56,873 nucleotides of DNA from Candidatus Nanoarchaeia archaeon (GTDB lineage: Archaea > Nanobdellota > Nanobdellia > SCGC-AAA011-G17 > GW2011-AR17): contig JBAZYQ010000003.1 in NCBI GenBank assembly GCA_041659245.1, positions 1 through 56,873 of the forward strand, read 5' to 3'. Below the pieces are notes generated by a model. That model did not search any database and was not told where the DNA came from. It saw only the letters and a program-made list of their open reading frames with translations. Both the position numbers and the translations under genes were made by a program. This document shows positions 13,496 to 31,390 of the stretch, in pieces. Positions within the stretch are counted from its first letter, which is position 1. Every line of letters starts with the position of its first letter.

Positions 13496-13511
13496 CATTT
13501 ATTCAAATCAT

Positions 13512-13586: not shown

Positions 13587-13636
13587 TTGATAGATATAAG
13601 ACTTTGAATAAGGCTGAAAAAGAAGAGGTGATTGAA

Positions 13637-14023: not shown

Positions 14024-14042
14024 GTTTCGGGGGTGAATAAAT

Positions 14043-14462: not shown

Positions 14463-14473
14463 GGTGAATGAAA

Positions 14474-14794: not shown

Positions 14795-14796
14795 AA

Positions 14797-15114
14797 ATGG
14801 AAAATCTATACCGGGCGCATATAGCTGTAAGAGGAGACGCGGATCATCGTAACTTAGAAACTTACCTGAATTATCCGGACATAAACGGAATGCACAGGAC
14901 ATTTCGCTATGACTTTTACTGCATTGTAAAGGCAGGATCTGAAAAAGAGGCTAAAAAGAAATGCAGGGATAACAGGAAATTGCAATTCTATTACAAGACT
15001 TGCTTTTATTCATATAAAGTTGCAGATGTAACAGAGCTTGAAGAAGGAAAAGACCTGCCGCTTGAACAACGGGTTGAAATGCTAAAAAAGAAGTTTATGG
15101 TGCTGGAGGAATGA
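14797..15114 (+). CDS. hypothetical protein, family B (copy 2)
   Basis: The last 75 nt are 71/75 identical to the last 75 nt of the upstream gene. The rest of the gene is divergent. Confidence 0.55.
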   Translation: MENLYRAHIAVRGDADHRNLETYLNYPDINGMHRTFRYDFYCIVKAGSEKEAKKKCRDNRKLQFYYKTCFYSYKVADVTELEEGKDLPLEQRVEMLKKKFMVLEE

Positions 15115-15527
15115 AAATGAAAAAAAAGTTAGGATATACGGACTTTAGCGAAGATCATATTAGCGAGCTTTATCAAGAATTACAGGCAGTAGCGGGTTTC
15201 AAGAAGATAGGAGATAAAACAAAAGATGCAATGCTTAAAGAAATTATTGATTCTTATAGGGAATGTGAACGAATCGGAAACAAGTGCAAAGGCATTAACC
15301 TCTGTAAGCATTATCCTTTGCTTTGCCATAAATTTCCTTTGCTTGAAGAAGTGGTAAGCGGCAGGACAACATTTAGCGAGCAGCTTAAATCTCTTCCGGG
15401 CACATTCTATATGGAAAAGGATAGAAGGCTGGAATCTGCTGTTTACAGCTATAATTATGCAATAGGGAAAATTGTGATATTTTTGGACAGCACTATTGAA
15501 AAATTGTATAGAGAGGTAACAAAATGA
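15111..15527 (+). CDS. hypothetical protein, family A (copy 2)
   Basis: ATGA overlap with the upstream gene. Contains KTKDAMLKEIIDSYRE, VSGRTTFSEQLKSL, LDSTIEKLY. Confidence 0.55.
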   Translation: MKMKKKLGYTDFSEDHISELYQELQAVAGFKKIGDKTKDAMLKEIIDSYRECERIGNKCKGINLCKHYPLLCHKFPLLEEVVSGRTTFSEQLKSLPGTFYMEKDRRLESAVYSYNYAIGKIVIFLDSTIEKLYREVTK

Positions 15528-15829
15528 CGAATCTATACGAACTATCAGCATCAAGGTGGGTTGAATACGGACCTGCTGAAGGCATGGCTGGTCCGGAATA
15601 CTCAGGCGATTATTACGTGCTTGGAGATACAAGAGAAGAAGCGCAAAAGGTTCTTGAAAGCTATCTTGGCACAGGATGGGAAGCAAAAAAAGATGCAAGG
15701 GAATTGAAAGAGCTGAATAACCTGCCTCTTGAGCAAAGACTTGTGCTGCTTGCTGAATTAAGGCGCGAAATAATCGGAAAAGACGGGAAGAAAGTCAGGT
15801 TTGAAACAAAATTAGTTCCAAAATTATGA
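15524..15829 (+). CDS. hypothetical protein, family B (copy 3, divergent)
   Basis: ATGA overlap. Contains MTNLYEL..., LNNLPLEQRLVLLAELRREI. Confidence 0.5.
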   Translation: MTNLYELSASRWVEYGPAEGMAGPEYSGDYYVLGDTREEAQKVLESYLGTGWEAKKDARELKELNNLPLEQRLVLLAELRREIIGKDGKKVRFETKLVPKL

Positions 15830-15840
15830 GGTGAAATAAA

Positions 15841-16200
15841 ATGGAAAATAATATTACGAAGGATAAACTTGAAATGAAGATTGGATTTACAGACGAGGAG
15901 CTTAATATTGCAAAAACACTAAAGGGGGCTTCGGCTGGGGCTTTAAGCAGCAACTTTCGCACCGGCTGCCCCTTTCTTTGCACTTACATCCATATTGTTA
16001 GAAGGGCAGAGAACATACTTGGGCTGTCTTATGATAAGGCGCAGGATTTTGTAATGGATATGGTGAAAAGGGGTTACGCATCTCTCCGAGATCCGGGGAA
16101 AGGTCAAGATAATTATCCTGGCTCTCTAACACTGGAGTTCACGCCGATGTCTTTTAATCTGATAGAAAGATATAATGCAAAAGAGGAGGTAACAAAATGA
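15841..16200 (+). CDS. hypothetical protein
   Basis: Same-strand ORF packed 11 nt after the upstream stop. No domain recognised. Confidence 0.5.
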   Translation: MENNITKDKLEMKIGFTDEELNIAKTLKGASAGALSSNFRTGCPFLCTYIHIVRRAENILGLSYDKAQDFVMDMVKRGYASLRDPGKGQDNYPGSLTLEFTPMSFNLIERYNAKEEVTK

Positions 16201-16502
16201 CAAACAGATACAATATCCTGATGAGAGACGACTTCCCGAATACGAAAGCCATGGTTTACAGGCTTGAGCTTGGCAAGCATAATATTTGCACTGAAGCAAC
16301 ATTCTGCTCTCCTGAGATAAAAGAGCTTTACAACTATATTGCATATGCAATGTCTGTAGATTATTTTGATGACGCAGAGATTGTCTCGGATGCTACATAC
16401 GCTCCAAGGTGCAGGGAAATGACAAAAGAGGAAAGAAAAGGGCTTGAGCATTTTTTGGCTTATGAGTCAGAATGGAATGACTGGAGATGGGGAAAGCAAT
16501 AG
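16197..16502 (+). CDS. hypothetical protein, possible family B (copy 4)
   Basis: ATGA overlap. The MTNRYNIL N-terminus is like the B copies; the rest is divergent. Confidence 0.45.
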   Translation: MTNRYNILMRDDFPNTKAMVYRLELGKHNICTEATFCSPEIKELYNYIAYAMSVDYFDDAEIVSDATYAPRCREMTKEERKGLEHFLAYESEWNDWRWGKQ

Positions 16503-16513
16503 CTGGAGGAAAA

Positions 16514-17146
16514 ATGGAATTTGACAACATAGAAAAGCTCATTGCAGAGCTGATGGCAAAGGAAGACAGGAAAGACGTGGAGTTCAGGCATATAATAGCT
16601 GTGACAGAGGTTGGGGACATAGGAAAATACATCACGCATGATCCCAAGTTGAATCCTAATGCACGCCCGCACGGAACAAAGGATGATGAAGTGCTTGCTT
16701 ATGGCCAGGCGTTTGTGCAATTGGCGGCTTTGGCTTACTTAAGGGGCATATCATTCAAGGAAGCGTTTGACAAAGGCATGCAGAACTGGATTGATGCTGA
16801 CTGGAAAAAGGCTGCCAAGCAAGCTCCGGAAAAGAAGACGTTGAATGGACTTGCAGCATCCCCTGGCTATGCATCAGGAATCGCGGAAGTTGTAACCGGC
16901 TTAAGCGATGTAAAAAAGTCAGGCTCAATACTTGTTGTCAGGTATGCAACGCCTGAGTTTGCAGCTGTTTTAAAAGATTATTCAGGCTGTGTTTCAGACC
17001 ACGGTGGGAAAACGTGCCATCTTGCGAATATTGCAAGAGAGATGAATCTGCCTTGTGTTGTGGGGACAGGAAACGCGACAGAGCTGATTAAGACAGGGCA
17101 GGTAATCTCTTTGGATGGAGACAAGGGCGAAGTGTATTTGGAGTGA
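16514..17146 (+). CDS. MazG-like all-alpha NTP pyrophosphohydrolase domain fused to PEP-utilising-enzyme mobile (phosphohistidine swivel) domain
   Basis: GGAGG lies 5 nt before ATG 16514. The N-terminal half (AVTEVGDIGKYI ... DEVLAYGQAFVQLAALAYLRGISFKEAF) is MazG-like. The C-terminal half (GLAASPGYASGIAEVV ... DHGGKTCHLANIAREMNLPCVVG) matches the swivel-domain consensus GG.tSHaAIvARE.giP.VvG, including the His. Confidence 0.6.
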   Translation: MEFDNIEKLIAELMAKEDRKDVEFRHIIAVTEVGDIGKYITHDPKLNPNARPHGTKDDEVLAYGQAFVQLAALAYLRGISFKEAFDKGMQNWIDADWKKAAKQAPEKKTLNGLAASPGYASGIAEVVTGLSDVKKSGSILVVRYATPEFAAVLKDYSGCVSDHGGKTCHLANIAREMNLPCVVGTGNATELIKTGQVISLDGDKGEVYLE

Positions 17147-19728: not shown

Positions 19729-19838
19729 CGCCGGGAGCGGGACTTCCACCGCATAGAACGGATTTGAACCCGCATAGCGGGTGGTTACCGCTTATCTGGT
19801 CATCAGCCAGACGCAATGCCTGGTTATGCCATCCCGGC
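19729..19838 (-). tRNA. type-II (Ser-like, long variable arm, G73) tRNA with anticodon loop CUGAUGA (GAU) and putative 20-nt intron in the T-arm
   Basis: Hand fold on the minus strand. Acceptor stem GCCGGGA/TCCCGGC is 7/7 paired. D arm is GCA/TGC. Anticodon stem is TCTGG/CCAGA. Variable arm is AGCGG-TAACCAC-CCGCT. The T arm GCGGG-TTCAAAT-CC[20 nt]CGC becomes perfect (GCGGG/CCCGC) only after removing about 20 nt. TATA-like TTTATAAAAA begins 24 nt upstream. Confidence 0.55.
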
Positions 19839-19884
19839 TTTGCCCACCGATATTTTTATAAACCTGTTAAGCATTTTTAATTAC

Positions 19885-19918
19885 GGGTGGTTACCGTTTG
19901 TCTGGCTATCAACCAGAC
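19885..19918 (-). repeat. partial duplicate of the tRNA anticodon arm plus variable arm
   Basis: 29/34 identical to 19779-19812. Both hairpins and the central GAT are retained. Confidence 0.7.
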
Positions 19919-20152: not shown

Positions 20153-20566
20153 ATGGTAAGAGTGAATCTAATCAGCCCAAAACTGCTTTCTGACCAGCAT
20201 TTATTGGCAGAGCATTTGGAGATAATGATGCTTATAGATTATGCAAGAAAGCATCCTTCAGGAGATATTCCTTCAAGATACTGCCTGGGAAAAGGGCATA
20301 TCAGGTTCTTCAGGAACAAGATAAAATATTTGCAGAAGAGATTTGCATTGATTCAGAAGGAGATGAGAGCAAGGGGATTCAAGCCAAAAGCTAAATTGTC
20401 TGTGAAAGGTGTTTCAAGGAAGCTGCTTAATGACTGGGCTCCTGTTGCAGGGGATAAAAAACTAATCAAGGAAAGAATCATGTGGAAAATAAGGAAGAAG
20501 CCTTCTTATTACAGGTATTATGGCGAGAAGAAGCCGCTTTCATTCTTTCAAAAGATTCTGAAGTAA
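20153..20566 (+). CDS. denV: pyrimidine-dimer DNA glycosylase (T4 endonuclease V family)
   Basis: MVRVNLISPKLLSDQHLLAEH...LGKGHIRFF...YLQKRF...RGF...YYRYYG aligns along its whole 137 aa with T4 endoV ([21 protein letters not shown]...LGAGHVTFF...FLRKRQ...RGF...WYKYYG). A TATA-like box lies 22 nt upstream. Confidence 0.85.
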   Translation: MVRVNLISPKLLSDQHLLAEHLEIMMLIDYARKHPSGDIPSRYCLGKGHIRFFRNKIKYLQKRFALIQKEMRARGFKPKAKLSVKGVSRKLLNDWAPVAGDKKLIKERIMWKIRKKPSYYRYYGEKKPLSFFQKILK

Positions 20567-20567
20567 A

Positions 20568-21434
20568 TTACTTCATGCATAAGGCGCCTTCTTTTATCCA
20601 CGAATATGCGACTGTGCCATCCTGGAATACAACCAATTGCCTCACGAAATCTTTCTTCGGGTCGTGTTTTGTGACGTAATCAGTTATTCTAAGAATAGAA
20701 CCTTTGTAATCATATACTCCCCCGCCCCAGACATGCCCGTGGCAGAGCTTTGCATTTTTGTGCAGCCATCTTCTGATTTGAAATAAGCCGTATCTTGATG
20801 GCGTGTATTCATTCCTTGTTGAATCAGGATTTCCTATGGGCCAGGAAGTGATGTTGTCAATGCCTTTGCTGATTAAAGTGTGGATTGCATCTTCGTATTT
20901 AATTGCGTCATCAACTCCGCCTTTTCTTAATAATAGTGTCCCTCTTACTCCGACGCCGTGCTCTTCAATATTGCTGACTATTGTTTCAAGCTTTGGATAT
21001 TCTTTTATCCCGTACACTTTTGCCTGCTCTTTCTCACCAACTGCGTGTATTGATAATGCAATGTTGGTTAATCCTAATTCTCTCCACGAATCAAGGTATT
21101 TGTTGCAGAATTCCTTGTCTCCAAATAGTATTCCGTTTGTGAACAAGTTTACGTTCGGAAAGAAAGCCCCTTGGCTTGCGCACTTGTCATAGACTTCCAA
21201 TGCTCTTGTCACAGATTCAGGGTCGCACGTTGGCTCTCCGCTGCCTGTCAATGACAATGACCAGCCTCCGTATCTTGCTGACAATTTGATTGCAGATTCC
21301 AGGTTCCTGTCATAGAGCTTGTTTTCTCTTGCGTCTTTTCTCAGGTATTTTCCTGCGCAAAAAGAGCAGTTTGCATTGCACGCGCCGTTTCCTATGAGTG
21401 CGGATACGCTGTAGATTTTCTCAATGCATGCCAT
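20568..21434 (-). CDS. radical SAM enzyme (MoaA/viperin-like branch), 288 aa
   Basis: CNANCSFC (CX3CX2C), LTGSGEP (GGE-type SAM motif), LFTNG. GGAGGT SD. Last gene of the kinase-rSAM-Dcd-rSAM unit. Confidence 0.7.
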   Translation of the reverse strand: MACIEKIYSVSALIGNGACNANCSFCAGKYLRKDARENKLYDRNLESAIKLSARYGGWSLSLTGSGEPTCDPESVTRALEVYDKCASQGAFFPNVNLFTNGILFGDKEFCNKYLDSWRELGLTNIALSIHAVGEKEQAKVYGIKEYPKLETIVSNIEEHGVGVRGTLLLRKGGVDDAIKYEDAIHTLISKGIDNITSWPIGNPDSTRNEYTPSRYGLFQIRRWLHKNAKLCHGHVWGGGVYDYKGSILRITDYVTKHDPKKDFVRQLVVFQDGTVAYSWIKEGALCMK

Positions 21435-21443
21435 TTTTACCTC

Positions 21444-21965
21444 CTATTTTTTGAAATCCATCCATATCTTGCTTGTCTGCGCACCTACGGCATTCTTGTA
21501 TTTGCCATTGTACAGCACAATCTTTCCCTGCGGCTTCCAGAACAGCATCTGCCCCACTTTCATCCCTTCGTAAACCCTTAGATTATGTATTGACTGCAAT
21601 TCAAGCGTCCACTGCCTTTTGAATCCTATATCGCCCAATCCGGAATTAAGATATATGTAAAGCCCCAGCCTGCCTACGGAGCTTCTTGCCTGCATTGTTG
21701 GGACATAATAATCAGAGCCCATTTCTTCAATCGTGTGCCCGATGTAAAGCTGGTTGGGCTTCAAAACATATCCTGCTTTTGGTATTTCTATCTCCCTGTA
21801 TTTCATCTCTTTTGCAGAGTCGAGTGTTTTATTCCTGTAAACCTTGAGTGTCTTGCCAAGCCTGAAATTATAGCTGTTGGGATTGAGATTTTCTTCAATA
21901 AAAGGAGTTATATGGATTCTTTTGAGATTTACCTGCCTTTTTATTTCAGAGCCTGTAAGTATCAT
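21444..21965 (-). CDS. dcd: dCTP deaminase / Dcd-Dut family protein
   Basis: MILTGSEI, NPNSYNFRLG, ARSSVGRLGL, WTLELQS, GMKVGQMLF are all Dcd hallmarks. ATGA overlap with the upstream rSAM stop (ATG at 21965). Confidence 0.8.
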   Translation of the reverse strand: MILTGSEIKRQVNLKRIHITPFIEENLNPNSYNFRLGKTLKVYRNKTLDSAKEMKYREIEIPKAGYVLKPNQLYIGHTIEEMGSDYYVPTMQARSSVGRLGLYIYLNSGLGDIGFKRQWTLELQSIHNLRVYEGMKVGQMLFWKPQGKIVLYNGKYKNAVGAQTSKIWMDFKK

Positions 21966-22681
21966 TTGTCCCACCCCCCTGCAACAAATCCGTCAGCATG
22001 TATTACCGGATTTCCTGATTCGCATGAGCATTCCCTTGTTTCTATTTCAACTTCAACGCCTTCATAAGAATAAACTTTGTTTCCGTGATTGTCTTTTATT
22101 ACGGGCCAGTCTAATTTTAATCCTTCTGTCGGCACAAATTCTTTTTCATATATTTTCATGTAATCTTTATTGTTGTGCTTCAAAAGCTGCCTCACAACTA
22201 CTTTTTTAATGCCTGTTGCTTTTGCCCATTCAAGATATTTTTCAAGCATTTTTTTTGTTGATATGCCTGATTTCAGGAGAAGGAGGCTGAGCTTGATATC
22301 GCATTTCACATTTTTGCAAAGTTCTGCAAGATTGTAGCTTATGCCCATTAATCTTTTATTTTCTTTGCCCTCATAATGGTGCCTTGATATGCAGAGTGTT
22401 GACAGCAGGTTTATTTCAGGAAAAAAGCCGAATGAGCCATTTGTATACATCTGGGTTTCTGCTTTTTCAGCACACACTTTTATTATCTCCCCTATGAATG
22501 AATTAAGAGTGGGCTCTCCTCCGCCTGTTATCTCTATCTTGCTTATGTCCATCAGCTTCAGCGTATTCTCAAGAAAGAGCGGGCTCATCGGGCTTTTGCA
22601 TTTCATCTGCCTGTATTTAGTAATACAAAAAGGGCATCTTGCATTGCACGCGTTTTCAATGGGGATTACATACGCTTTCAT
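21962..22681 (-). CDS. radical SAM enzyme, 239 aa
   Basis: CNARCPFC (CX3CX2C), ITGGGEPTLN, MYTNGS. ATGA overlap with the kinase stop. Confidence 0.7.
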   Translation of the reverse strand: MKAYVIPIENACNARCPFCITKYRQMKCKSPMSPLFLENTLKLMDISKIEITGGGEPTLNSFIGEIIKVCAEKAETQMYTNGSFGFFPEINLLSTLCISRHHYEGKENKRLMGISYNLAELCKNVKCDIKLSLLLLKSGISTKKMLEKYLEWAKATGIKKVVVRQLLKHNNKDYMKIYEKEFVPTEGLKLDWPVIKDNHGNKVYSYEGVEVEIETRECSCESGNPVIHADGFVAGGWDK

Positions 22682-23163
22682 TTTACTCTCTCTTTTACCT
22701 CTCTTATAAGCTCTTCAAGCTCTCCATAATTTTTTGACAGGTACAGCCTGTGCGGGATTCCATTAAATTCGCTGCAGAACAATTCCCTTGACTTCTCAAG
22801 CTCTTCAAGCCTTATCTGCTGCTCATAGCCCCTTTTCAGGTAGCGCTCTTTCAGCACTTCTGCTGGCGGGCATGTGAAAATTATCAGCGTATCAATTGAG
22901 CATATCCCGTCAAGTATCTGCTTTTCCGGCTTTGAGAAAGGCGAGCCTCCTCTCCACAGGTTTGAATAAACCTCTTCTGAGAAATGGCTCCTGTCAAAGA
23001 CTATGTTTTCGTTGGTTGCATATTCTTTCAGGTATCTTGCAAATTGGCTTCCTTCCCTGTGATGCAGGGACTTTGAGTCCCAATGCAGGGCGTTCTTTAC
23101 CCTGTCAACAACAGTTGATTTTCCTGAGCAGTCAGAGCCTTCGACTATGATGCGGGTTATCAT
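22678..23163 (-). CDS. thymidylate-kinase-like P-loop (d)NMP kinase
   Basis: IIVEGSDCSGKST (Tmk-type Walker A, EG.DG.GKST) and FDRSHFSEEVYS (compare Tmk DRY..S..AYQ). GGAGG SD. Confidence 0.6.
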   Translation of the reverse strand: MITRIIVEGSDCSGKSTVVDRVKNALHWDSKSLHHREGSQFARYLKEYATNENIVFDRSHFSEEVYSNLWRGGSPFSKPEKQILDGICSIDTLIIFTCPPAEVLKERYLKRGYEQQIRLEELEKSRELFCSEFNGIPHRLYLSKNYGELEELIREVKERVK

Positions 23164-23191
23164 CGTGGTTTTCCTCCTCTTGTTTATCTCT

Positions 23192-23213
23192 AATATACTT
23201 ATAGTGTTGTATA
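23192..23213 (-). promoter_or_regulatory. island promoter motif (copy 1) upstream of kinase operon
   Basis: The plus strand AATATACTTATAGTGTTGTATA is 17/22 identical to 27149-27170, at a similar distance (29-50 nt versus 33-54 nt) from the first ATG. A second partial copy (CTTATGTGTTGTATAATA) lies at 23243-23260. Confidence 0.4.
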
Positions 23214-23307
23214 AAGAATAAGCATTATTGTATATATTCTGTCTTATGTGTTGTATAATACGGGCTTTAGAACAATATGGCTATTTTAAAATAAAAAAGA
23301 AAAAGGA

Positions 23308-23940
23308 TTATTCCTGCCTTTTGAATACAATGCACGGAATCCTGTCTACACGCCCGCTTTGCCACGGCATTTCTCTTATTCTGTACCTGACTTGCCATCC
23401 TGCCTGCTCATAAATAGTTTTGATTCTCTCTTTCATTTTTGCGTCCATGAATCCTGTTTCCTCATACCATATTTCAGCATCTTCGCAGTCTCTCTTTAAT
23501 CTTCCGTCTATCTCTTCCTCGCATTTTTTCACTTCTCTCTCGAACTTTTCCGCTTCATCAGCTATTACTTTCTCTTCGATTGTGCTTGCATGTATAACCC
23601 TGCCGCTTTCATTTTTTTGACTGCTTCTATTTTGAATGCTTAGCACGAGAAGATTGCTGTAATGCCTTGTGCCGTTCCATCTTTCATACACATCGCCTCC
23701 CTCGGGCTTATATTCCACGTTCCATCCTGCCTGCCTGTAATGCTCCATCACTGTATCAAGCACTTCTTTGTCTACTCCGTTTGGGGCGCATTTGCATAAT
23801 GGAATTCTATACCCCTTGGCCGGTAAATTTTCGCGTATTTCCCTGCCAATGGCATTTTCAAGGCTTGTAACTTTTCTTTCAAACCTTTCTTTTTTCTGCT
23901 CGTCCGCTCTTTTCTTCATATCTTCTGCTTTTACAACCAT
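23308..23940 (-). CDS. hypothetical protein, family C (two AGW units)
   Basis: Paralogue of 26111-26713. Internal duplication: HYRQAGWNVEY and IYEQAGWQVRY. GGAGG SD. Confidence 0.6.
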   Translation of the reverse strand: MVVKAEDMKKRADEQKKERFERKVTSLENAIGREIRENLPAKGYRIPLCKCAPNGVDKEVLDTVMEHYRQAGWNVEYKPEGGDVYERWNGTRHYSNLLVLSIQNRSSQKNESGRVIHASTIEEKVIADEAEKFEREVKKCEEEIDGRLKRDCEDAEIWYEETGFMDAKMKERIKTIYEQAGWQVRYRIREMPWQSGRVDRIPCIVFKRQE

Positions 23941-24001
23941 TTTGCCTGCCTCCCTTGCTGATTAATACTTAATTGGAGCTATTCTCTGCAGATTTATAAG
24001 T

Positions 24002-24421
24002 TTATTCCCTTTCATCAAGGAAATCCTGCAATGAAAGCCCCAGCGGCTTGTTTGTCTCTGCCTTCACTGCTTTCATGCCGTGCCTTATTGCCTCTTCTAT
24101 ATTGATTAGCGTATCGTCAATGAGCCAGCTGCCTTTAAGATTGAACATGCCTGAGAGCTCTTTTATTTTTTCTTTTGTCGTGTACAGGCAGGGAATTTCA
24201 ATGCTGTAATGCTGAAGCCATATCTCATTCAGCAAAGTGTAGGGGCAGCTTGTTGCAATTATCACATTGTCAATTTTTTTCAACTCATTCACAAGTGCTA
24301 CATTCTCAGGTATTGCAGGATACTTTTCAATATACTGCCTGTAGTTCATGAACCACTTGAATGCCTTCCAGTCATCCCCTTTTACCCTTAATACCCCGTC
24401 CAAGTCACAGAAGATGGTCAA
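24002..24421 (-). CDS. HAD-superfamily phosphatase (5'(3')-deoxyribonucleotidase-like)
   Basis: N-terminal DxD motif FCDLDGVL and distal WLIDD. TTG start. The nucleotidase subtype is inference. Confidence 0.55.
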   Translation of the reverse strand: MTIFCDLDGVLRVKGDDWKAFKWFMNYRQYIEKYPAIPENVALVNELKKIDNVIIATSCPYTLLNEIWLQHYSIEIPCLYTTKEKIKELSGMFNLKGSWLIDDTLINIEEAIRHGMKAVKAETNKPLGLSLQDFLDERE

Positions 24422-25520
24422 GTATTGTCACCTCGGAGCTTTCTGCAATGTCTGCCTTTGCCATTGCGCCCGAAACCCATTTGATTATTGATTCATCTCC
24501 TCTTGTTATTTTTCCCATGTTTACAAATGTTGATTTCATATTATGGCATTCTGCTGAAGGCCTGCTGCATTTTGCAATTGAAGGGCAGATTCCTTTTTCT
24601 GTTTTTTCAACTGATTCATATTTTATTCCGTGCGAATCAAGAATGGCTTTTGCGCTTTCTTCTGTCACAGATTCCTTAAATGATTTGCATTTGCTATACA
24701 TTGTACATTCACCGCAGTTATACTGCTCAGGCTTGTAAAAATGGTTGTTGTAATCGTGGCTTAATCCTGCTGTGAAAGAGGCGAGGCATGATGTCTTCAT
24801 GAATGCATTCAATCCAAGCTCTTTTGCTTTTGCAAGAAGAAACTGCTTTTTGTCTTTTGGCATCAGCTTTTTGTCCTCTAGCCATTTTTCGTGCCCGTTT
24901 GGAATCTTCGGAAAATATCCGTTCATTTTTAGTAGGTTAAGAACAGATTTTTTACCCATCAGCCCTGCATAAGAAAATGCCTTTCCCCCTACTGCCTTGT
25001 AATCCTCAAGAACCTGCTTTATCATTTCTTCTGAGTCATTTATGCCTGCAATTATCGGCCTGTAATAAAGGCTTGCATTTATCCCTGCATTGATGAGCCT
25101 TTCAAGGCTTTCAACCTTCTTTTTGTAGCTTACTCCGTCAAAATTGTCTTTTGTGCCTGAAACAGAATATAATACCTGGAGCTTTAGCTGCGTATCAGAA
25201 AGCCTTTGCGCAATCTCTTCAGTGATGTATGATTTTGTTATTATTGCAACTATTCCCTTATGCCCTGCTCTCTCAAGAATTTTCATTTTTTTGAAAGTGT
25301 CTTCCTTTTGTATGAAAGGGTCCCCGAAATAATTGTTTATGCTTACCGGAAGGGTATTTATCGGCGGAGGCATGTTATTGTCATATTCAAAAGAATGCTC
25401 AAGATTTGATTCAATCAGGTCTTCCCTGCATGACAGCACGCAGTATGGGCACCTGTAGCAGTTCCTCTCATTGTGCGCCATTATGTAAAATGACTTCAGC
25501 GCCTGCGGCCTCTTTTCCAT
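24405..25520 (-). CDS. SplB/COG1533-like radical-SAM-type Fe-S enzyme with non-canonical Cys triad and Cys-rich C-terminus
   Basis: NCYRCPYCVLSC has CX2CX2C(X3C) spacing rather than CX3CX2C. The barrel-like stretch FGDPF...IITKS...YSVSG...YYRPII resembles the spore-photoproduct-lyase family. An extra CGECTMYSKC...CPSIAKCSRPSAEC cluster is present. Confidence 0.4.
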   Translation of the reverse strand: MEKRPQALKSFYIMAHNERNCYRCPYCVLSCREDLIESNLEHSFEYDNNMPPPINTLPVSINNYFGDPFIQKEDTFKKMKILERAGHKGIVAIITKSYITEEIAQRLSDTQLKLQVLYSVSGTKDNFDGVSYKKKVESLERLINAGINASLYYRPIIAGINDSEEMIKQVLEDYKAVGGKAFSYAGLMGKKSVLNLLKMNGYFPKIPNGHEKWLEDKKLMPKDKKQFLLAKAKELGLNAFMKTSCLASFTAGLSHDYNNHFYKPEQYNCGECTMYSKCKSFKESVTEESAKAILDSHGIKYESVEKTEKGICPSIAKCSRPSAECHNMKSTFVNMGKITRGDESIIKWVSGAMAKADIAESSEVTILDHLL

Positions 25521-25586
25521 TAGACACCTCCATTGTGTTTATGTATTTAACACTTTCTGGCGTTTGCTTGCTGCAGTGTTATATTG

Positions 25587-26099
25587 CTATTTCTTTATTC
25601 CCAGCCTATCCTCTAGTTCCTTCAATTCATTCTCCGAAACCTCAGGATCCTTGGCAAGGGCTTCCTCTTTTTCTTTTTCCTGCTTTCTTGCCTCAAGAGT
25701 CTTGCTTATGCCATTGTATAAATCATCAATTCTTTTTGTCCACGGGCCGGGCTTGTACTCCAATATCTCATAATAGCGTCTGTCGTCCTTTACAAATAAT
25801 GGATGTGCGGGTTGTGGCTGCGTTGAGCCTTCTTTTGCATGAAATACCCTATCATATGTATGATAATGGTCGTCGTTTATGCAAGTGATATCAACCTCGC
25901 TGTCTCCCATTGCATACACTTCGTAATGGATTCTCAGCGATTCGTCCTGAAAAACATAATCTTCGCTTGCCCACTCCCTTGAGCGGTACTTGCATTCGCC
26001 TAATTTCTCAGCTATTTCCCTTGACTTTGGAATAATGCCTAATCCTTCAATCTTCTCGCCCTGCTCTTTTACCAGCTTTTCAAGCTCTGATTTTCTCAT
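25587..26099 (-). CDS. hypothetical protein
   Basis: 170-aa ORF within the co-oriented unit. No motif recognised. Charged C-terminal tail. Confidence 0.5.
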   Translation of the reverse strand: MRKSELEKLVKEQGEKIEGLGIIPKSREIAEKLGECKYRSREWASEDYVFQDESLRIHYEVYAMGDSEVDITCINDDHYHTYDRVFHAKEGSTQPQPAHPLFVKDDRRYYEILEYKPGPWTKRIDDLYNGISKTLEARKQEKEKEEALAKDPEVSENELKELEDRLGIKK

Positions 26100-26110
26100 T
26101 TTGTCCCTCC

Positions 26111-26713
26111 TTATTCCCTTTCAAACACAAGATACTTATTTTTTTCCTGCCTCCAGTCCCGCGTTTGGTCATAGCGCTCCTTGACGCTGACTTTCCATCC
26201 TGCTGCTGCATACCTCTCTAAAAGCATATCCCTTACGCCTTCTTCAATTTCTTTTATGCAATACCACACAGCTTTTTCACTGCATCTGTTTACCAGTGTT
26301 GCGTCAATTTTTGCCTCATGCTTGTTTGCCTCAGTTTCCTCATAAGCCAGCACCCTTTGCTCAACTGTCTTTGCAGGCAAAATATTCCCTTCACTTTTTG
26401 CTGTTACATCCTTTCCTATCTTAAGCGTAATGCGCGTTTTCACAACATATCCATTGTCCCATTTTTCTTCCTTGTAATCAGCTTCCCATCCCGCATTTCT
26501 GTAATCCTGTATTACAGTGTCCATAATTTTTTCATACAACGGGTCGGAAGACTTTATATCTGCATATTGGATATATGCCCTTGAAAGCCGTCTTTGAACT
26601 GCTTCCTTCAAGTCCCTGTCCAATACTTCCTCAAGGTTTCTTGCCCTGTATTTCACATGTGCTTGCTCGCTTTCCTCTGCCTTCTTTTTTGCCTCTTCCG
26701 GCTTGATTACCAT
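26111..26713 (-). CDS. hypothetical protein, family C (two AGW units)
   Basis: AAGGAGGG lies 8 nt before ATG 26713; the track start at 26734 overlaps the upstream gene. Contains DYRNAGWEADY and RYAAAGWKVSV. Confidence 0.6.
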   Translation of the reverse strand: MVIKPEEAKKKAEESEQAHVKYRARNLEEVLDRDLKEAVQRRLSRAYIQYADIKSSDPLYEKIMDTVIQDYRNAGWEADYKEEKWDNGYVVKTRITLKIGKDVTAKSEGNILPAKTVEQRVLAYEETEANKHEAKIDATLVNRCSEKAVWYCIKEIEEGVRDMLLERYAAAGWKVSVKERYDQTRDWRQEKNKYLVFERE

Positions 26714-26726
26714 TTTTATTCCCTCC

Positions 26727-27116
26727 TTAGTCATACGGTGTTAATTCCCTTTCTTCATACTCTTCATACAAATCATGAAATTTATTGCATTCCATGCAAA
26801 GTGTTGCCATTGTGCGCGGGGGAGTCGGAAAACCAAAAATCCTTGTTCTCTGCGTTCCATCGGGCTTTGTATAGGCAATGCCCGGATTTATGGCAATTCT
26901 ATTTCCGCCGCAGCTGCAGCGCCTGTCAGATTCTGTTACAAATTCTCCTCGCGGGTATACTAATTTGATAACAAGCTCGTAATCACGGCTGAGATGCTCC
27001 TCTATTAGTTTGCGCTCCGGCCATCTGTATTCCCTTGCGTAGCGCCTGACTGCAGCCAGCTTCTTCCTGTCTTCAGTTACTAGCTCAATTAGCGTCTGGT
27101 TTCCTATCAGCCTCAT
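26727..27116 (-). CDS. hypothetical protein with CxC...CxxC zinc-binding motif
   Basis: First gene of the minus-strand unit. Contains RRCSCGG and LCMECN. Confidence 0.5.
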   Translation of the reverse strand: MRLIGNQTLIELVTEDRKKLAAVRRYAREYRWPERKLIEEHLSRDYELVIKLVYPRGEFVTESDRRCSCGGNRIAINPGIAYTKPDGTQRTRIFGFPTPPRTMATLCMECNKFHDLYEEYEERELTPYD

Positions 27117-27246: not shown

Positions 27247-28074
27247 ATGCTCGATACTTCAATAATCAAGAAAATAAATGAGTTTGTCTATCTCCAGCCA
27301 AGGACAATACAGGAAATATCACTTCTTCTGAAAATAAACTGGAGGACAGCTGACAGGTATGTTGACAGAATAAGTGAAGAGCAGGGAACAATTGCGACAA
27401 AAACCTTCCGCGGCGGAACAAAAGGCGCCTTAAAGATTGCTTATTGGTGCAACATAGAAAAAATCCATTCAACAACATTCCAGGAAAAGCTCTACAAGAA
27501 AATAGAGGCAGGAAGAGTGAAGACAGACTTCTCGCCTTTTGACATATTCCAGTATGTTGATGAAAAGAAAAGGAGCGCAAAAGCATCATACGAATCATCA
27601 AAATCAGACCCGTTAACACATTTTATGAGCGCAACAAAAGAGGAATTCCTCTGCTTCTCTGGAAATCTTTCGTGGCTTAATTCCGGCTCTGCTTTGGAAG
27701 AAATCAGGGAAATGCTCAAGAGGAATGTCCAGATTAAAATCCTCACAAGAATTGACGTTGCATCAATCAGCAATATTAAGAAGCTGCTTGAATTAGAATC
27801 AAAGATGGGAAAGAAGCTTGTTGACATAAGGCACTGCGAGCAGCCGCTAAGGGGCTTTATCTCTGACGGCAAGATAGCAAGGCTCACAGAGAAGAAAGAC
27901 CCTGCAATATACAAGGCAGGGGAATTAAAAAAAGAAGTCACATTGAAATACGAGATAAGGGACGAGGAATGGGTGCAGTGGCTTCAGAAAGTTTTCTATA
28001 ACCTCTTCAGGACTTCCATCGAATGCGAGAAGAGAATGAAGGACATGAAGCAGATTGAGAATATTGAGCCGTAA
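27247..28074 (+). CDS. wHTH transcriptional regulator, TrmB-like (right island boundary paralogue)
   Basis: The MLDTSIIKKINEFVYLQPRTIQEISLLLKINWRTADRYVDRI... protein is a paralogue of 10059-10892 along its full length. The track start at 27208 (TTG) spans the TATA box. Confidence 0.55.
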   Translation: MLDTSIIKKINEFVYLQPRTIQEISLLLKINWRTADRYVDRISEEQGTIATKTFRGGTKGALKIAYWCNIEKIHSTTFQEKLYKKIEAGRVKTDFSPFDIFQYVDEKKRSAKASYESSKSDPLTHFMSATKEEFLCFSGNLSWLNSGSALEEIREMLKRNVQIKILTRIDVASISNIKKLLELESKMGKKLVDIRHCEQPLRGFISDGKIARLTEKKDPAIYKAGELKKEVTLKYEIRDEEWVQWLQKVFYNLFRTSIECEKRMKDMKQIENIEP

Positions 28075-28965: not shown

Positions 28966-29134
28966 ATCATCACAAATTTAAATTTTTCATATTCACTGAT
29001 TCCTTTCAAAAGATTTATAAATATTACAGGGGATTAGGGCATTTGTTGGGAATGATAAGCCAAGATGAAGATGCAAAAACTATCTGAAGCCCCCTGTGTG
29101 CATCGAAAAGCCTGTTCAAAATGCGGAGAAAAAC

Positions 29135-31390
29135 ATGAATCATGATAAAATCATAATAACAAATGCAAATACCCACAATCTTAAAGGCATATCTCTGGAA
29201 ATTCCCAAGAATAAGCTGGTGGTTTTTACAGGGGTTTCCGGTTCCGGAAAATCATCCCTGGTTTTTGATACAATATATACAGAATCCCAAAGGCAGCTTA
29301 TTGAGACTTTTTCTTCTTTTGCAAGGGCAAGAATGCCAAAGCTGTCAAAGCCGCCGGTAGACGAAATTAAGAATATTTCAACTGCAATTGTGATAGACCA
29401 AAAGAGGATGGGGACAACACTAAGAAGCACTGTTGGAACAGCAACCGAATTATACACTTATTTAAGGCTTCTTTTTTCAAGATGCGGGGATAATTTCATA
29501 GGCCCCTCATTTGTTTTTGGGTTTAACCATCCCCTGGGGATGTGCCCAAATTGCAAGGGGCTGGGAAAACAAATCAAAGTTGATGTAAATTTGCTGTTGG
29601 ATAAGGAAAAAACCATCAGGGAAGGGGCAATCAATCACCCGGACCACAAGGTTGGGGGCTGGAACTGGAGAGAGATGGTTGCAATAGGGTTGTTTGATGT
29701 TGATAAAAAGATTAAGGATTTTTCAGAAAAAGAATTAAATGACCTGCTATATGCAAAAGCAATCCCTGTTGAGAAAAAACACGGGGCAGGAACATATTCA
29801 AAGAATTTTGAAGGGATTGCCAGAAAACTTGAGAGAATATATGTAAACAAGGCAAAAGAAGAACAATCAAAAGCCAGAAGAGATGCTTATCAAAGATATT
29901 TTGTATATGCCGATTGTGAATCCTGCAAGGGTTCGAGGATTAATGAAAAAGCCAGAAGTGTTAAAGTTAATGGCAAAACTATTCCTGAGTTAATAAATAT
30001 GGAATTTAGTGAACTTTACGGGTTTCTAAGTACAATTAAAGGGGACATTGCAAAGCCAATTGTCCGGAAAATGCAGCAAATTATGTCTCACCTGATTGAA
30101 ATAGGGGTTGGCTATCTCTCTTTGAACCGCTCAGTGGCTACTTTGTCCGGGGGGGAAAGCCAAAGGATCAAAATGGCGAGGCAGCTTGATTGTGATTTGG
30201 TTGATATGGCATATATTATGGATGAGCCTACAATTGGACTTCATCCAAGGGACATTAACAAACTGATTGAAATGCTCAAGAAACTTAAGGAAAAAGGGAA
30301 TAGTGTTTTTGTTGTTGAACACGACCCTGCCTTGATTAAATGCGCAGAATATATCATTGATATTGGGCCCAAAGCGGGAAGCCTGGGCGGAAAAATAGTT
30401 TATTCCGGAACATTTGAAGGGCTAAAAAAGTCAAGCGGGCTTACTGCGGAGTACTTGAATAAAAAAGAGAAAGTCAGCAGTAATCGAAAAAAATGGAAAG
30501 ATTGCATTGAAATTAAAAATGCCTCCTTGCACAATTTAAAAAATGTTTCCGCTAAACTGCCTCTTGGAATCTTAACTTGCATTACAGGGGTTGCGGGCTC
30601 CGGGAAAAGCAGCCTGATTAACGATGTTTTTTTGAAAGAAAACAAAGAAGCCATTATAATAGACCAGTCTGCTGTGGGAAAGTCTTCCAGGTCTAATCCC
30701 GCAACATATGTGGGCATTTTTGATGATATTAGAAAGGAATTAGCAATAAAAACCAAAACAAACCCTTCGTTATTTAGCTTTAATTCAAAAGGGGCTTGCC
30801 CAAAATGCAAGGGCCTTGGGGCAATAACTTATGAAATGAGCTTTATGGATGAAGTGAAAGTAACCTGTGATGAATGCAATGGCAAAAGATATACAGGGGA
30901 AGTCTTGGAATTAAAGTACAAAGATAAAAATATTTTTGATGTTCTCAACATGACCATAATCGAAGCCAGGAATTTTTTTGAAAATCCAGGGATTAAACAT
31001 AAATTTCAGATTTTGTGCGATGTTGGGCTTGAATATCTGGAAATTGGGCAGCCACTCAGCACTTTATCCGGGGGAGAATGCCAAAGGATAAAGCTTGCAT
31101 CTGAATTGCATAAAAAAGGAAACTTTTATGTTATGGACGAGCCAACAACCGGATTGCATATGGCGGACATTGACAAGCTAATGGGAATAATAAAACGTTT
31201 GGTGGATAATCACAATACCGTTGTTGTAATTGAGCATAACCTTGATGTTATAAAGCATGCTGATTGGGTGATAGATTTAGGCCCTGAAGGCGGTTCAAAG
31301 GGAGGGGAAATATTGTTTGAAGGCATTCCTGAAGATTTGGTAAAATGTGAGAAAAGCTATACCGGCAAGTATTTGAAAGAGTTTTTATAA
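29135..31390 (+). CDS. UvrA-family ABC ATPase lacking the UvrB-binding domain (class II UvrA paralogue)
   Basis: Two ABC modules ([22 protein letters not shown]; [22 protein letters not shown]) and CPNCKGLG / CPKCKGLG zinc modules. At 752 aa it is about 190 aa shorter than canonical Uvr[12 protein letters not shown] follows the first module directly. GGAG lies before ATG 29135. Confidence 0.8.

What the first reader, a model, noticed from the sequence alone, without database searches (positions are those of the whole stretch)
20568..27116. Candidate undescribed nucleotide-targeting module: Dcd-like deaminase, Tmk-like kinase, HAD nucleotidase and three radical-SAM-type enzymes
Ten co-oriented minus-strand genes form two SD-coupled units (27116 to 23308 and 23163 to 20568). 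ATGA start/stop overlaps occur at 22678-22681 and 21962-21965. Recognisable members are: a Dcd-type dCTP deaminase (ARSSVGRLGL, WTLELQS); a Tmk-like P-loop kinase (EGSDCSGKST); a HAD DxD phosphatase (FCDLDGVL); two MoaA/viperin-branch radical SAM proteins (CNANCSFC + SGEP + FTNG, and CNARCPFC + GGEP + YTNG); and an SplB/COG1533-like enzyme with an unusual CYRCPYC triad plus an extra Cys cluster. Three unknown proteins, including two AGW-repeat paralogues, are interleaved. I know of no described pathway with this combination. Viperin-like rSAM enzymes next to nucleotide kinases are the signature of pVip chain-terminator synthesis, and Dcd-family enzymes are used in dCTP-depletion defence. Alternatives are DNA hypermodification by a mobile element or a non-ThyA/ThyX route to dTMP. 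The choice between these is inference.
Basis: partly seen in the sequence, partly recalled or inferred. Interest (0 to 1): 0.85.

Follow-up and report, generated by a model that had tools for sequence, protein, structure and literature searches.

The report
Uncharacterised radical-SAM deoxynucleotide operon of DPANN archaea
The ten genes are real but are not one system: they fill a variable operon slot in tiny symbiotic archaea, and its conserved core is two unstudied radical-SAM enzyme families tied to DNA-building-block genes rather than to virus defence.

Summary
The ten genes are a composite, not one conserved module.

(1) g10 (20568-21434) is a 288-aa radical-SAM protein found in DPANN archaea, CPR bacteria and viral contigs. 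It is 66-88% identical across them, well above SerRS or TopA from the same genome pairs (46-49%). In CPR it sits beside NrdR with NrdR-box pairs.

(2) The cassette Tmk-like kinase, rSAM g8 and Dcd (23163-21444) recurs. Dcd was adjacent to g8 in all 10 contexts examined. In some genomes the cassette replaces g10 and its paralogue g10' in the same syntenic slot.

(3) g1-g6 occur only in a few close relatives. The g4 family has 9 proteins among 5.8 billion.

g8 folds like MoaA and viperin but fails every curated family cut-off. PADLOC gives no convincing defence-model match, only weak partial pVip hits.

Best reading: a deoxynucleotide-supply operon with an unknown radical step on an NTP or dNTP. 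I favour an RNR-like 2'-deoxygenation (about 0.3). A folate-independent thymidylate-type step (about 0.15) and pVip-like defence (about 0.1) remain possible. I found no literature on it.

The parts
27247..28074 (+). c1: divergent wHTH protein (about 275 aa), the conserved left anchor of the operon slot and presumably its regulator
   Evidence: Homologues (37-59% identity) lie divergently upstream of the cassette in 28 of 42 g10 loci and in most g8 loci. No Pfam, PDB or PADLOC hit apart from faint HTH matches. The start was moved to the ATG at 27247 to match the length of the homologues.
26727..27116 (-). g1: 129-aa Cys-rich protein of unknown function, lineage-specific
   Evidence: No family hit. 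Found only in the identical contig L001.
26111..26734 (-). g2: 207-aa unknown protein with two AGW motifs, paralogue of g6
   Evidence: 28% identical to g6, E 2e-21. No family hit.
25587..26099 (-). g3: 170-aa protein of unknown function
   Evidence: Homologues only in the close relatives L055 (69%) and L069 (91%).
24405..25520 (-). g4: rare SplB/PA0069-like putative radical-SAM protein with a CxxCxxC triad and a C-terminal Cys-rich domain
   Evidence: Only 9 proteins in a 5.8-billion-protein database. C21, C24, C27 and seven more Cys are invariant. Hits are weak: PA0069 1.6e-5, Radical_SAM 0.017, phrog_13321 1.8e-7. No PDB sequence hit.
24002..24421 (-). g5: 139-aa DxD-motif protein (HAD-like, unconfirmed), constant partner of g4
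   Evidence: Overlaps g4 by 17 nt. A g5 homologue follows g4 in L055, L068 and L069. Only weak PHROG hits, including 5'-3' deoxyribonucleotidase at E 0.0024.
23308..23940 (-). g6: 210-aa AGW-motif paralogue of g2
   Evidence: 56% homologue in L055.
23164..23307 (-). 144-bp AT-rich spacer with GAGGAGG before g7; probable internal promoter separating the two units
   Evidence: In the relatives L055 and L069 an NTP_transf_2 pair is inserted at this position.
22678..23163 (-). g7: Tmk-like P-loop (d)NMP kinase
   Evidence: Thymidylate_kin 26.2 bits (cut-off 27); phrog_761 E 2.7e-14; closest PDB entry is SPbeta YorR 2axp. Homologues (56-81%) precede g8 in 9 of 10 contexts.
21962..22681 (-). g8: 239-aa radical-SAM enzyme of a new MoaA/viperin-like clade
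   Evidence: 51 homologues. AF2 pLDDT 94. Foldseek: MoaA TM 0.74, viperin-like 0.66. Profile against PDB: viperin-like 1.8e-9. Invariant: C12/C16/C19, GGGEP, S99, H102, N108, K130, R164.
21444..21965 (-). g9: Dcd-family dCTP deaminase (173 aa), constant partner of g8
   Evidence: PF22769 E 4.6e-36. Best PDB hit 4xjc, E 9e-20. Adjacent to g8 in 10 of 10 contexts. 72-76% identical between DPANN and Patescibacteria.
20568..21434 (-). g10: 288-aa super-conserved radical-SAM enzyme, the right anchor of the slot
   Evidence: 605 homologues, the listed top 120 all 76% identical or more. 42 genome loci and 10 viral loci. Median 73-79% identity against 44-49% for SerRS, TopA and c1 in the same genome pairs. 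Nine conserved Cys including the CHGHVWGGG motif. NrdR-adjacent in CPR.

Best explanation
The window shows one lineage's filling of a variable operon slot that DPANN archaea keep between a divergent wHTH regulator (c1) and a super-conserved radical-SAM gene (g10).

Two parts are conserved functional units. The first is g10, which elsewhere is often followed by a paralogue, g10'. The second is the translationally coupled cassette of Tmk-like kinase, rSAM g8 and Dcd. Both serve deoxynucleotide supply.

For the cassette, the Dcd step (dCTP to dUTP or dUMP) and the Tmk-like kinase step (a dTMP-like dNMP to dNDP) follow from family membership. The rSAM enzymes g8 and g10 are related to the NTP-binding MoaA and viperin. 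They are inferred to start a 5'-deoxyadenosyl-radical reaction on the sugar of an NTP or dNTP.

The step I favour is an RNR-like loss of the 2'-OH: g8 would make dCTP for Dcd, and g10 would reduce NTPs more generally.

g1-g6, including the rare g4-g5 pair, are lineage-specific passengers of the same slot. They are not part of that pathway.

Likelihoods: a deoxynucleotide-metabolism operon about 0.55-0.6; the specific RNR-like step about 0.3.
For: Shown by tool results:
- g10 is 66-88% identical across DPANN, CPR and viral contigs. It evolves far more slowly than SerRS, TopA or c1 in the same genome pairs.
- In CPR loci g10 lies next to NrdR (Zn-ribbon plus ATP-cone), in 8 loci divergently and in Dojkabacteria L026 directly downstream on the same strand. 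Starting from NrdR instead, all six metagenome NrdR loci with enough flank carry g10.
- The NrdR-box core occurs 8 times in 10 x 200 bp upstream of g10, against 0.2 expected. In an independent set it occurs 5 times in 817 bp, against 0.07 expected. Box pairs 42 bp apart match the 24-27 bp 'long spacer' class.
- NrdR is described as an RNR-specific repressor (PMC9110341 abstract).
- Dcd is adjacent to g8 in 10 of 10 contexts and the Tmk-like kinase in 9 of 10. Other neighbours are AAA_28 kinase, CYTH, nucleoside 2-deoxyribosyltransferase, glutaredoxin and a NUDIX-NrtR-like regulator.
- L065 and L056 carry kinase-g8-Dcd in exactly the TopA-c1 ... metallophosphoesterase-SerRS frame where L007 and L008 carry AAA_28-CYTH-g10-g10'.
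- The g8 model (pLDDT 94) is closest to MoaA and viperin-like enzymes. g8, g10 and g10' share a basic residue on strand beta5. By my recollection of the viperin sequence, this matches its NTP-binding FKINS motif; the printed alignment runs through that region but places the g8 lysine one residue off.
- g10, sometimes with g10', sits among replication genes in viral contigs, for example between PolB halves in L054.
- No PADLOC hit for any conserved partner other than a generic metallophosphoesterase match to candidate model PDC-S10; the module's own hits are weak and partial.

Inferred: the substrate and the chemistry of g8 and g10.
Against:
- One g10/g10' genome (L021) also encodes a protein with class II RNR hallmarks (SNCF, NPCGE) 4.3 kb away. 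So g10 is not simply a replacement for canonical RNR.
- A review states that CPR bacteria generally carry RNR and ThyA.
- The interval between c1 and g10 differs between 88%-identical relatives and accepts HEPN/MNT-like insertions. That resembles a hotspot for accessory or defence genes.
- NrdR boxes in a divergent spacer could serve nrdR autoregulation only.
- The NrdR evidence comes from bacterial homologues, not from this archaeal window.
- g8 and g10 co-occur here and in L005 and L055, so they are probably not fully equivalent.
Confidence: 0.5

Rival explanations
1. Folate-independent thymidylate-type pathway. Dcd (possibly the bifunctional dUMP-forming type) makes dUMP or dUTP. g8 adds a methyl or other C5 group using SAM. 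The Tmk-like kinase phosphorylates the product. g10 does the same job in genomes that lack the cassette.
For: The three cassette genes would form a gap-free linear path, dCTP to dUMP to dTMP to dTDP, and they are translationally coupled. g9's best solved relative is B. halodurans 4xjc, which I recall being the dUMP-forming bifunctional enzyme. In L060 a PF05014 member sits between the kinase and g8; from my own knowledge that family includes dNMP and 5-hmdUMP glycosidases. ThyA-like extreme conservation would fit g10. By general knowledge, DPANN and CPR often lack folate synthesis.
Against: g8's structural neighbours are sugar-radical or peptide-modifying rSAM enzymes. No RlmN/Cfr-type or HemN-like methylase appears among the listed hits, and only a B12-dependent methylase (Mmp10) at low rank. 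No Cys pair is conserved across g8, g10 and g10' of the kind class A methylases need. NrdR is known to control RNR genes, not thymidylate synthase. A review lists ThyA as conserved in CPR.
Confidence: 0.15
2. pVip-like antiviral module. The kinase supplies an NTP, the viperin-like rSAM converts it to a chain-terminating nucleotide, and Dcd depletes dCTP or edits the product. The c1-g10 interval is a defence hotspot.
For: The best profile hits of the g8 family among solved structures are viperin-like enzymes. There are weak PADLOC pVip hits. A Tmk-family kinase next to a viperin-like gene mirrors viperin-CMPK2 (own knowledge). The interval is hypervariable and holds HEPN/MNT-like genes in relatives.
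Against: The viperin equivalog scores 24 and 23 bits against a cut-off of 180. The alignment to viperin covers only the N-terminal 140 or so residues and not the C-terminal part, which I recall as the CTP-binding extension. No PADLOC hit for Dcd, c1, AAA_28, CYTH, g10' or the PF05014 protein. g10 and the cassette Dcd are more conserved than housekeeping genes. There is NrdR linkage. Viruses themselves carry g10 among replication genes.
Confidence: 0.1
3. The small rSAM proteins are activases (of the NrdG or PFL-AE kind). They would install a protein radical on a partner encoded elsewhere, such as a class III RNR, or on the adjacent Dcd-fold or g10' protein.
For: NrdR control would fit an nrdG-like gene. 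PFL-AE is among the structural hits (rank 15). Some sources name relatives 'organic radical activating enzyme'. g8 always has a fixed protein partner.
Against: NrdG models score 20 bits against 131 for g8 and nothing for g10. No NrdD or other glycyl-radical enzyme lies next to g10 or g8 in about 70 loci. g10 stands alone beside NrdR in several CPR genomes. In my experience activases are usually less conserved than their targets, whereas g10 is extreme.
Confidence: 0.1
4. A precursor pathway for a non-canonical DNA base (hypermodified dU or dC) used by DPANN, CPR and their viruses, spread by a mobile element.
For: g10/g10' and a Dcd-g8 pair occur on viral or virus-like contigs. From my own knowledge, Dcd plus a kinase plus a base- or sugar-modifying enzyme is the logic of phage thymidine hypermodification. 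A tRNA-Ile with a nearby partial repeat lies next to the module.
Against: The module's GC content equals that of the window. It lies in a chromosomal frame syntenic across many genomes. No integrase, DNA glycosylase/transferase or DpdA-like gene is linked. No g8 or g10 homologue exists in 50,697 deposited phage genomes.
Confidence: 0.08

Closest known systems
Viperin / prokaryotic viperins (pVip) with an adjacent nucleotide kinase (CMPK2-like)
   Same: Small single-domain rSAM with CNxxCxFC, GGEP, TNG and S-x-D/H...N motifs. It gives the best profile match among solved structures (E 1.8e-9). TM is 0.62-0.66. There is a Tmk-family kinase next door. The conserved beta5 Lys and beta6 Arg of g8 sit where I recall viperin binding the NTP phosphates.
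   Different: Fails the viperin family model (24 bits against 180). The C-terminal third is unrelated to what I recall as viperin's CTP-binding extension. It is always paired with a Dcd-fold protein. It lies in a conserved operon frame, and its paralogue g10 is NrdR-linked. No defence-model support.
MoaA (GTP 3',8-cyclase)
   Same: Top structural neighbour (TM 0.74). Has a twitch-like C-terminal beta-hairpin region with extra Cys. MoaA abstracts the 3'-H of an NTP (own knowledge), which is the first step an RNR-like reaction would need.
   Different: Scores 31 bits against cut-offs of 231-325. No MoaC or Moco genes nearby. The extra Cys of g8 are not universal in its family.
Deoxypyrimidine pathway Dcd (or DCD:DUT) to thymidylate synthase to Tmk, and NrdR-controlled RNR operons
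   Same: g9 is a bona fide Dcd-fold enzyme with the ARSS..R..G and LEL motifs. g7 is Tmk-like. g10 homologues carry paired NrdR boxes as nrd operons do.
   Different: No ThyA, ThyX or RNR homologue is in the operon. An uncharacterised rSAM sits where such an enzyme would be expected.
SplB / COG1533 (PA0069, Rv2578c) 'DNA repair photolyase' radical-SAM family (applies to g4 only)
   Same: Weak full-barrel similarity (PA0069 E 1.6e-5). By my recollection of that family, the GDP..Q, ITKS and RP.I.G.ND motifs are COG1533-like.
   Different: CxxCxxC instead of CxxxCxxC. Has an added Cys-rich C-terminal domain. Scores 24 bits against 360. Only 9 members are known.

Membership tests
Viperin / pVip | Scores above the curated viperin family model (NF038283, cut-off 180 bits) | tested here: not met
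   g8 scores 24.2 bits and g10 23.0 bits. PADLOC pVip hits have E 1.5e-7 to 1.9e-4 and cover only the shared rSAM core: g8 residues 8-84, g10 residues 18-159.
Viperin / pVip | Conserved C-terminal extension that closes over CTP (recalled from the viperin structures) | tested here: not met
   The profile alignment to viperin-like structures ends at about residue 146 of 239. The C-terminal third is beta-hairpin, twitch-like.
Viperin / pVip | Canonical CxxxCxxC cluster plus GGE SAM motif | tested here: met
   C12/C16/C19 and GGGEP are invariant in 49 g8 sequences. The same holds in g10.
Viperin / pVip | Produces ddhNTP and protects against viruses | not testable with these tools
   Needs enzymology and challenge assays.
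MoaA | Scores above the MoaA equivalog models | tested here: not met
   Best scores are 31.3 bits (g8) and 30.6 bits (g10), against cut-offs of 231-325.
MoaA | C-terminal three-Cys auxiliary [4Fe-4S] cluster | tested here: inconclusive
   In g8, C70, C97, C218 and C220 are conserved in 84-98% of members and are absent in some. g10 has six extra conserved Cys.
Dcd (dCTP deaminase, dUTPase fold) | Pfam DCD domain above cut-off and catalytic motifs | tested here: met
   PF22769 scores 124.6 bits against 27. ARSSVGRLGL and WTLELQ are present. Best PDB hit 4xjc, E 9e-20. The NCBIfam equivalog falls just short (84.8 against 92.8).
Thymidylate kinase (Tmk) | Scores above the Tmk models; has the lid and DR(Y/H) motifs | tested here: not met
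   PF02223 scores 26.2 against 27. TIGR00041 scores 28.8 against 83. The P-loop and FDRSHF are present, but the protein is about 40 aa shorter than a typical Tmk (about 200 aa, own knowledge). Closest PDB entry is YorR 2axp. It is best called Tmk-like.
HAD phosphatase | HAD profile match with motifs I-IV | tested here: not met
   Only motif I (DLDGV) is visible. No Pfam, NCBIfam or PDB hit. Weak PHROG hits only.
SplB / COG1533 radical SAM | CxxxCxxC cluster motif and a family model score | tested here: not met
   The triad is an invariant CxxCxxC. PA0069 scores 24 bits against 360.
NrdG-type activase | NrdG model score and adjacency to nrdD | tested here: not met
   TIGR02495 scores 20 bits against 131 for g8 and nothing for g10. 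No NrdD-like neighbour in about 70 loci.
NrdR regulon | Paired 16-bp NrdR boxes with 14-17 or 24-27 bp spacers upstream of the gene | tested here: met
   Met for CPR homologues of g10 only. Enrichment is P of about 1e-10, and P of about 1.6e-8 in an independent set. Pairs 42 bp apart are seen in L034 and L074. Spacer classes are from PMC12051234. This does not apply to the archaeal window itself.
Known anti-phage defence systems (PADLOC v2) | Any component matches a defence model | tested here: not met
   Only weak partial pVip or P-loop hits for g7, g8 and g10. None for c1, AAA_28, CYTH, c7, g10' or the PF05014 protein. The flanking metallophosphoesterase (c3) gives a generic match to candidate model PDC-S10, and the 250-aa L069 ORF a weak one to PDC-M39B.

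The most novel reading that the evidence does not exclude
g10, and g8 together with Dcd, are radical-SAM enzymes that make DNA precursors directly. They would be either a fourth kind of ribonucleotide reductase, in which the 5'-deoxyadenosyl radical acts on the NTP sugar without a thiyl- or glycyl-radical protein, or a folate-independent thymidylate synthase. They would have been spread between DPANN archaea, CPR bacteria and their viruses.
Probability: 0.35. Interest if true: 0.95.

Novelty: new variant of a known kind. Interest (0 to 1): 0.8.

Why it matters
Ribonucleotide reduction and thymidylate synthesis are thought to rest on three RNR classes and on two enzyme families (ThyA, ThyX). 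A small rSAM enzyme that does either job would change textbook nucleotide biochemistry. It would also affect ideas on how the most reduced cells and their viruses make DNA.

Even if the chemistry turns out different, g10 is a striking target. It is a 288-aa protein more conserved than tRNA synthetases. It is shared across two domains and viruses, it is wired to the dNTP sensor NrdR, and it has no known function.

The ten-gene run is a mosaic, and the experiments should focus on g10 (with g10') and on the kinase-g8-Dcd cassette.

Tried and rejected
- Single-sequence AF2 of g10 gave pLDDT 35 and was unusable. That used one of the two structure jobs, so only g8 has a model.
- Scans for g8 and g4 in IMG/VR, for g8 and g10 in INPHARED phages, and for g4 in JGI metagenomes found nothing. 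A profile scan of IMG/VR with the g8 alignment returned only generic rSAM N-termini.
- Large ORFs near NrdR-g10 in CPR loci were checked as possible RNRs. Read by eye from their N-termini or full sequences, they look like DnaE, GatA/B, an ABC transporter, SecA, a copper ATPase, a tRNA synthetase and NusA.
- Fusion proteins of the wider g10 family (438-666 aa) carry no recognisable extra domain.
- The BFVD fold search gave only generic viral rSAM proteins.
- Rfam found no riboswitch, only the two tRNAs.
- An integrated-element reading (tRNA-Ile nearby) was rejected, because the frame is syntenic in many genomes and its composition is native.
- Literature searches on rSAM with RNR, Dcd or thymidylate in DPANN/CPR found nothing relevant.

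Full report
**1. Observation**

The window has ten co-oriented minus-strand ORFs between 27116 and 20568, exactly as described.

- Packing: g1/g2 overlap by 8 nt, g4/g5 by 17 nt, and g7/g8 and g8/g9 each by ATGA. A 144-bp AT-rich spacer with GAGGAGG precedes g7.
- The g8/g9 overlap fixes the Dcd start at the ATG at 21965 (173 aa). This agrees with gene calls on the identical contigs L001 and L002.
- Dcd is PF22769 (E 4.6e-36). g8 and g10 pass the Radical_SAM cut-off. g7 is a P-loop kinase 0.8 bit below the Thymidylate_kin cut-off, with phrog_761 'thymidylate kinase' at E 2.7e-14.
- g4 has only weak rSAM/PA0069 similarity. Its CxxCxxC triad and seven further Cys are invariant in its family.
- g2 and g6 are paralogues.
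- g5 shows a DxD motif but no HAD profile hit.
- GC content is uniform across the window. Rfam finds only the two tRNAs.

**2. The ten genes are a mosaic**

tblastn of all ten proteins against 42 genome loci that carry a g10 homologue found g7-g8-g9-g10 together only in L005. It found g1-g6 nowhere. Later look-ups add three relatives.

- L055 (81-89% identity for most shared genes) has g3-g6, an inserted NTP_transf_2 pair, and g7-g10.
- L069 (88%) has g3-g5, the NTP_transf_2 pair, an unrelated 250-aa ORF and g10, but no kinase-g8-Dcd cassette.
- L068 has AAA_28, two unknown ORFs and g4-g5 behind a c1 gene.

The g4 family has nine members in 5.8 billion proteins. So g1-g6 are lineage-specific passengers, and g4-g5 is a small rare cassette of its own.

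**3. g10**

*Distribution and conservation.* g10 has 605 homologues. The 120 best are all full-length and at least 76% identical. Genome loci come from Woese-, Nano-, Pace- and Parvarchaeota, and at 66-75% identity from CPR bacteria: Dojkabacteria, Moranii-, Paceibacterota, Collierbacteria and unclassified Patescibacteria. Ten IMG/VR contigs carry it at 61-73%. Deposited phage genomes do not. On the same genome pairs the median identity is 73-79% for g10. It is 46% for SerRS, 49% for TopA and 44% for c1.

*Sequence features.* g10 has nine conserved Cys, including MAC(3)IE, C231-H-G-H-V-W-G-G-G and C286 two residues from the end. It has no close solved relative; the best is PqqE at E 2.8e-4. 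The wider family has 291 representatives (50%-identity clusters) at E 1e-10 or better. None of the ten looked up has an informative name, and Pfam found no extra domain in the seven longer ones scanned.

*Neighbourhood in archaea.*
- A divergent c1 gene lies upstream in 28 of 42 loci.
- Between c1 and g10 there is a variable set: an AAA_28 kinase, a CYTH protein and unknown ORFs.
- g10 is followed by a 30-38% identical paralogue, g10', in 20 of 42 loci.
- A convergent metallophosphoesterase comes next.

*Neighbourhood in CPR.* The neighbour is NrdR, with Zn_ribbon_NrdR at E 4.5e-14 and ATP-cone at E 8.8e-8. It is adjacent in eight CPR loci and lies one gene away in a Parvarchaeota contig. Searching from NrdR instead gave ten metagenome loci. 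All six with enough upstream sequence carry g10 divergently, two of them with g10'.

*NrdR boxes.* The core C-W-A-N-A-T-N-T-W-G occurs 8 times in 2 kb upstream of g10, against 0.2 expected. That pattern was partly shaped on those data. In the independent second set it occurs 5 times in 817 bp, against 0.07 expected. L034 and L074 have two boxes 42 bp apart, which means 26-bp spacers. This is the 'long spacer' class shown to bind NrdR (PMC12051234). NrdR is described as RNR-specific and often autoregulated (PMC9110341 abstract).

No classical RNR lies next to NrdR-g10 in these loci. One archaeal locus (L021) has an ORF with class II RNR hallmarks 4.3 kb from g10/g10'. That was recognised by motif and not tested with an HMM.

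**4. The cassette**

*The g8 family.* It has 51 members at 36-81% identity, from DPANN and Patescibacteria. I examined ten distinct contexts: the window, L005, L055, L056, L058, L060, L063, L064, L065 and L066.

- Dcd is adjacent in all ten.
- A g7-type kinase is present in nine.
- Other neighbours are AAA_28, CYTH, a PF05014 nucleoside deoxyribosyltransferase-family protein, glutaredoxin, YjbQ and, in Patescibacteria, a NUDIX-NrtR-like regulator.

L064 is virus-like (rIIB, NAPRTase, GIY-YIG) and carries Dcd-g8 without the kinase. The cassette Dcd is itself 72-76% identical between DPANN and Patescibacteria, while g8 is only 38-48%.

*Same slot, different content.* L065 and L056 keep the flanks TopA and c1 on one side, and the metallophosphoesterase on the other, followed in L065 by SerRS and in both by the small c10 ORF. 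These flanks are 45-60% identical to those of L007. Between them L065 and L056 hold kinase-g8-Dcd, where L007 and L008 hold AAA_28-CYTH-g10-g10'. The two sets therefore occupy the same regulated slot. The window, L005 and L055 carry both sets.

**5. What the rSAM proteins look like**

- With a 49-sequence alignment, AF2 gives g8 a pLDDT of 94.
- Foldseek ranks MoaA first (TM 0.74). SuiB, viperin-like enzymes (0.62-0.66), SkfB, NifB and PFL-AE follow.
- The family profile hits viperin-like structures best (E 1.8e-9) and then MoaA (1e-6), but only over the first 146 or so residues.
- All curated models fail by a wide margin: viperin 24 against 180, MoaA 31 against 231-325, NrdG 20 against 131.
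- g8 and g10 are 24% identical (E 4e-8).
- g8, g10 and g10' share CNxxCxxC, GEP, (F/Y)TNG, a Ser/Thr on beta4, a Gln/Asn, a Lys/Arg plus Ser/Thr/Asn on beta5, and a C-terminal Gly...Trp. By my recollection of the viperin sequence, the beta5 pair matches viperin's FKINS motif, and g8's R164 on beta6 matches viperin's R/K pair. I recall both as NTP contacts. The printed alignment runs through the FKINS-like region but places the g8 lysine one residue off, and it does not reach beta6.

I conclude that these three are subfamilies of one new clade of small rSAM enzymes that probably bind NTPs. They are not members of the viperin, MoaA or NrdG families.

**6. Mechanism**

Shown by the data:
- a Dcd-fold deaminase and a Tmk-like kinase fixed to g8;
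- NrdR operators at g10 in CPR;
- deoxynucleotide-type neighbours;
- viral copies among replication genes, such as the PolB halves in L054;
- no convincing defence-model hit.

Inferred:
- The operon supplies deoxynucleotides.
- The rSAM step is a 5'-dA-radical reaction on the sugar of an NTP or dNTP.

*Favoured step.* I favour RNR-like 2'-deoxygenation (about 0.3). NrdR is RNR-specific. The nearest enzymes abstract 3'-H (MoaA) or 4'-H (viperin) of NTPs. dCTP would also be the substrate the ever-present Dcd needs.

*Rivals.*
- A C5 methylation or other modification of dUMP, which would make the cassette a gap-free path from dCTP to dTDP (about 0.15).
- pVip-like defence (about 0.1).
- An activase role (about 0.1).
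- A DNA-hypermodification precursor pathway (about 0.08).

*Points against the favoured reading.*
- An RNR co-exists with g10/g10' in L021.
- CPR bacteria are reported to carry RNR and ThyA generally.
- The slot is hypervariable and accepts HEPN/MNT-like inserts.
- The NrdR evidence is bacterial, while the window is archaeal and uses the unrelated c1 regulator.

**7. Comparison and novelty**

The closest known systems are viperin with CMPK2-type kinases, MoaA, the Dcd-ThyA/X-Tmk pathway, and NrdR-controlled nrd operons. For g4 the closest is SplB/COG1533. Each defining family test that could be run failed, except Dcd (Pfam) and the NrdR-box test for the CPR homologues of g10. I found no paper describing these proteins.

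I rate the finding as a new variant of a known kind: nucleotide-acting rSAM enzymes linked to kinases. There is about a one-in-three chance that the chemistry is categorically new.

**8. Verdict**

- Observation: confirmed.
- Interpretation: partly supported.
- Interest: high (0.8).
- Focus: g10 (20568-21434) and the cassette 23163-21444, rather than the whole ten-gene run.

Noticed in passing
window 10059-10892 (-) and 11039-17146 (+): A second c1-family wHTH gene (42% identical to L007 c1) lies divergent from an 818-aa ORF with no Pfam hit and a run of nine small plus-strand ORFs that ends in a PEP-utilizers-domain protein. The c1 family may be a general regulator of divergent operons in DPANN.
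   Followed up: partly
window 19750-19838 and 19884-19918: tRNA-Ile(GAT) is 89 nt long, so it may contain an intron. A 35-nt piece of it (19778-19812) is repeated at 86% identity 106 nt away. This is either a partial tRNA duplication or a second tRNA that ARAGORN and Rfam missed.
   Followed up: partly
window 20153-20566 (+): A T4 endonuclease V-type pyrimidine-dimer DNA glycosylase (PF03013, E 1.4e-12) converges on g10, with 1 nt between the stop codons. The same neighbour is seen in L001, L002 and L069 only. A short UvrA-like ABC protein (764 aa) lies at 29096-31390.
   Followed up: partly
L054 6328-11414 (IMG/VR UViG_3300033074_001413): g10, g10' and a 222-aa ORF sit between two halves of a family-B DNA polymerase: a 557-aa exonuclease and N-terminal part, and a 368-aa C-terminal part.
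   Followed up: partly
L055 7690-9254; L069 10713-11694: In two close relatives an NTP_transf_2 (MNT-like) gene with a small partner ORF is inserted on the opposite strand at the position of the window's g6-g7 spacer. This marks the slot as a hotspot for insertions.
   Followed up: no
window 21358-21384 and 22626-22652: The DNA encoding the CxxxCxxC motifs of g10 and g8 is 89% identical over 27 nt, although the proteins are only 24% identical. This could be chance or local gene conversion.
   Followed up: no
L021 15215-16402: An ORF with class II RNR hallmarks (SNCF, NPCGE) lies 4.3 kb downstream of g10/g10' in a Woesearchaeota MAG. It is cut off by the end of the locus and was not tested with an HMM.
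   Followed up: partly
L006, L009, L013, L036, L039 (record titles): Several g10 contigs are labelled Methanosarcinales, Pseudomonadota or Pseudomonadales. Their gene content looks like DPANN or CPR, so these are probably binning or labelling errors.
   Followed up: no
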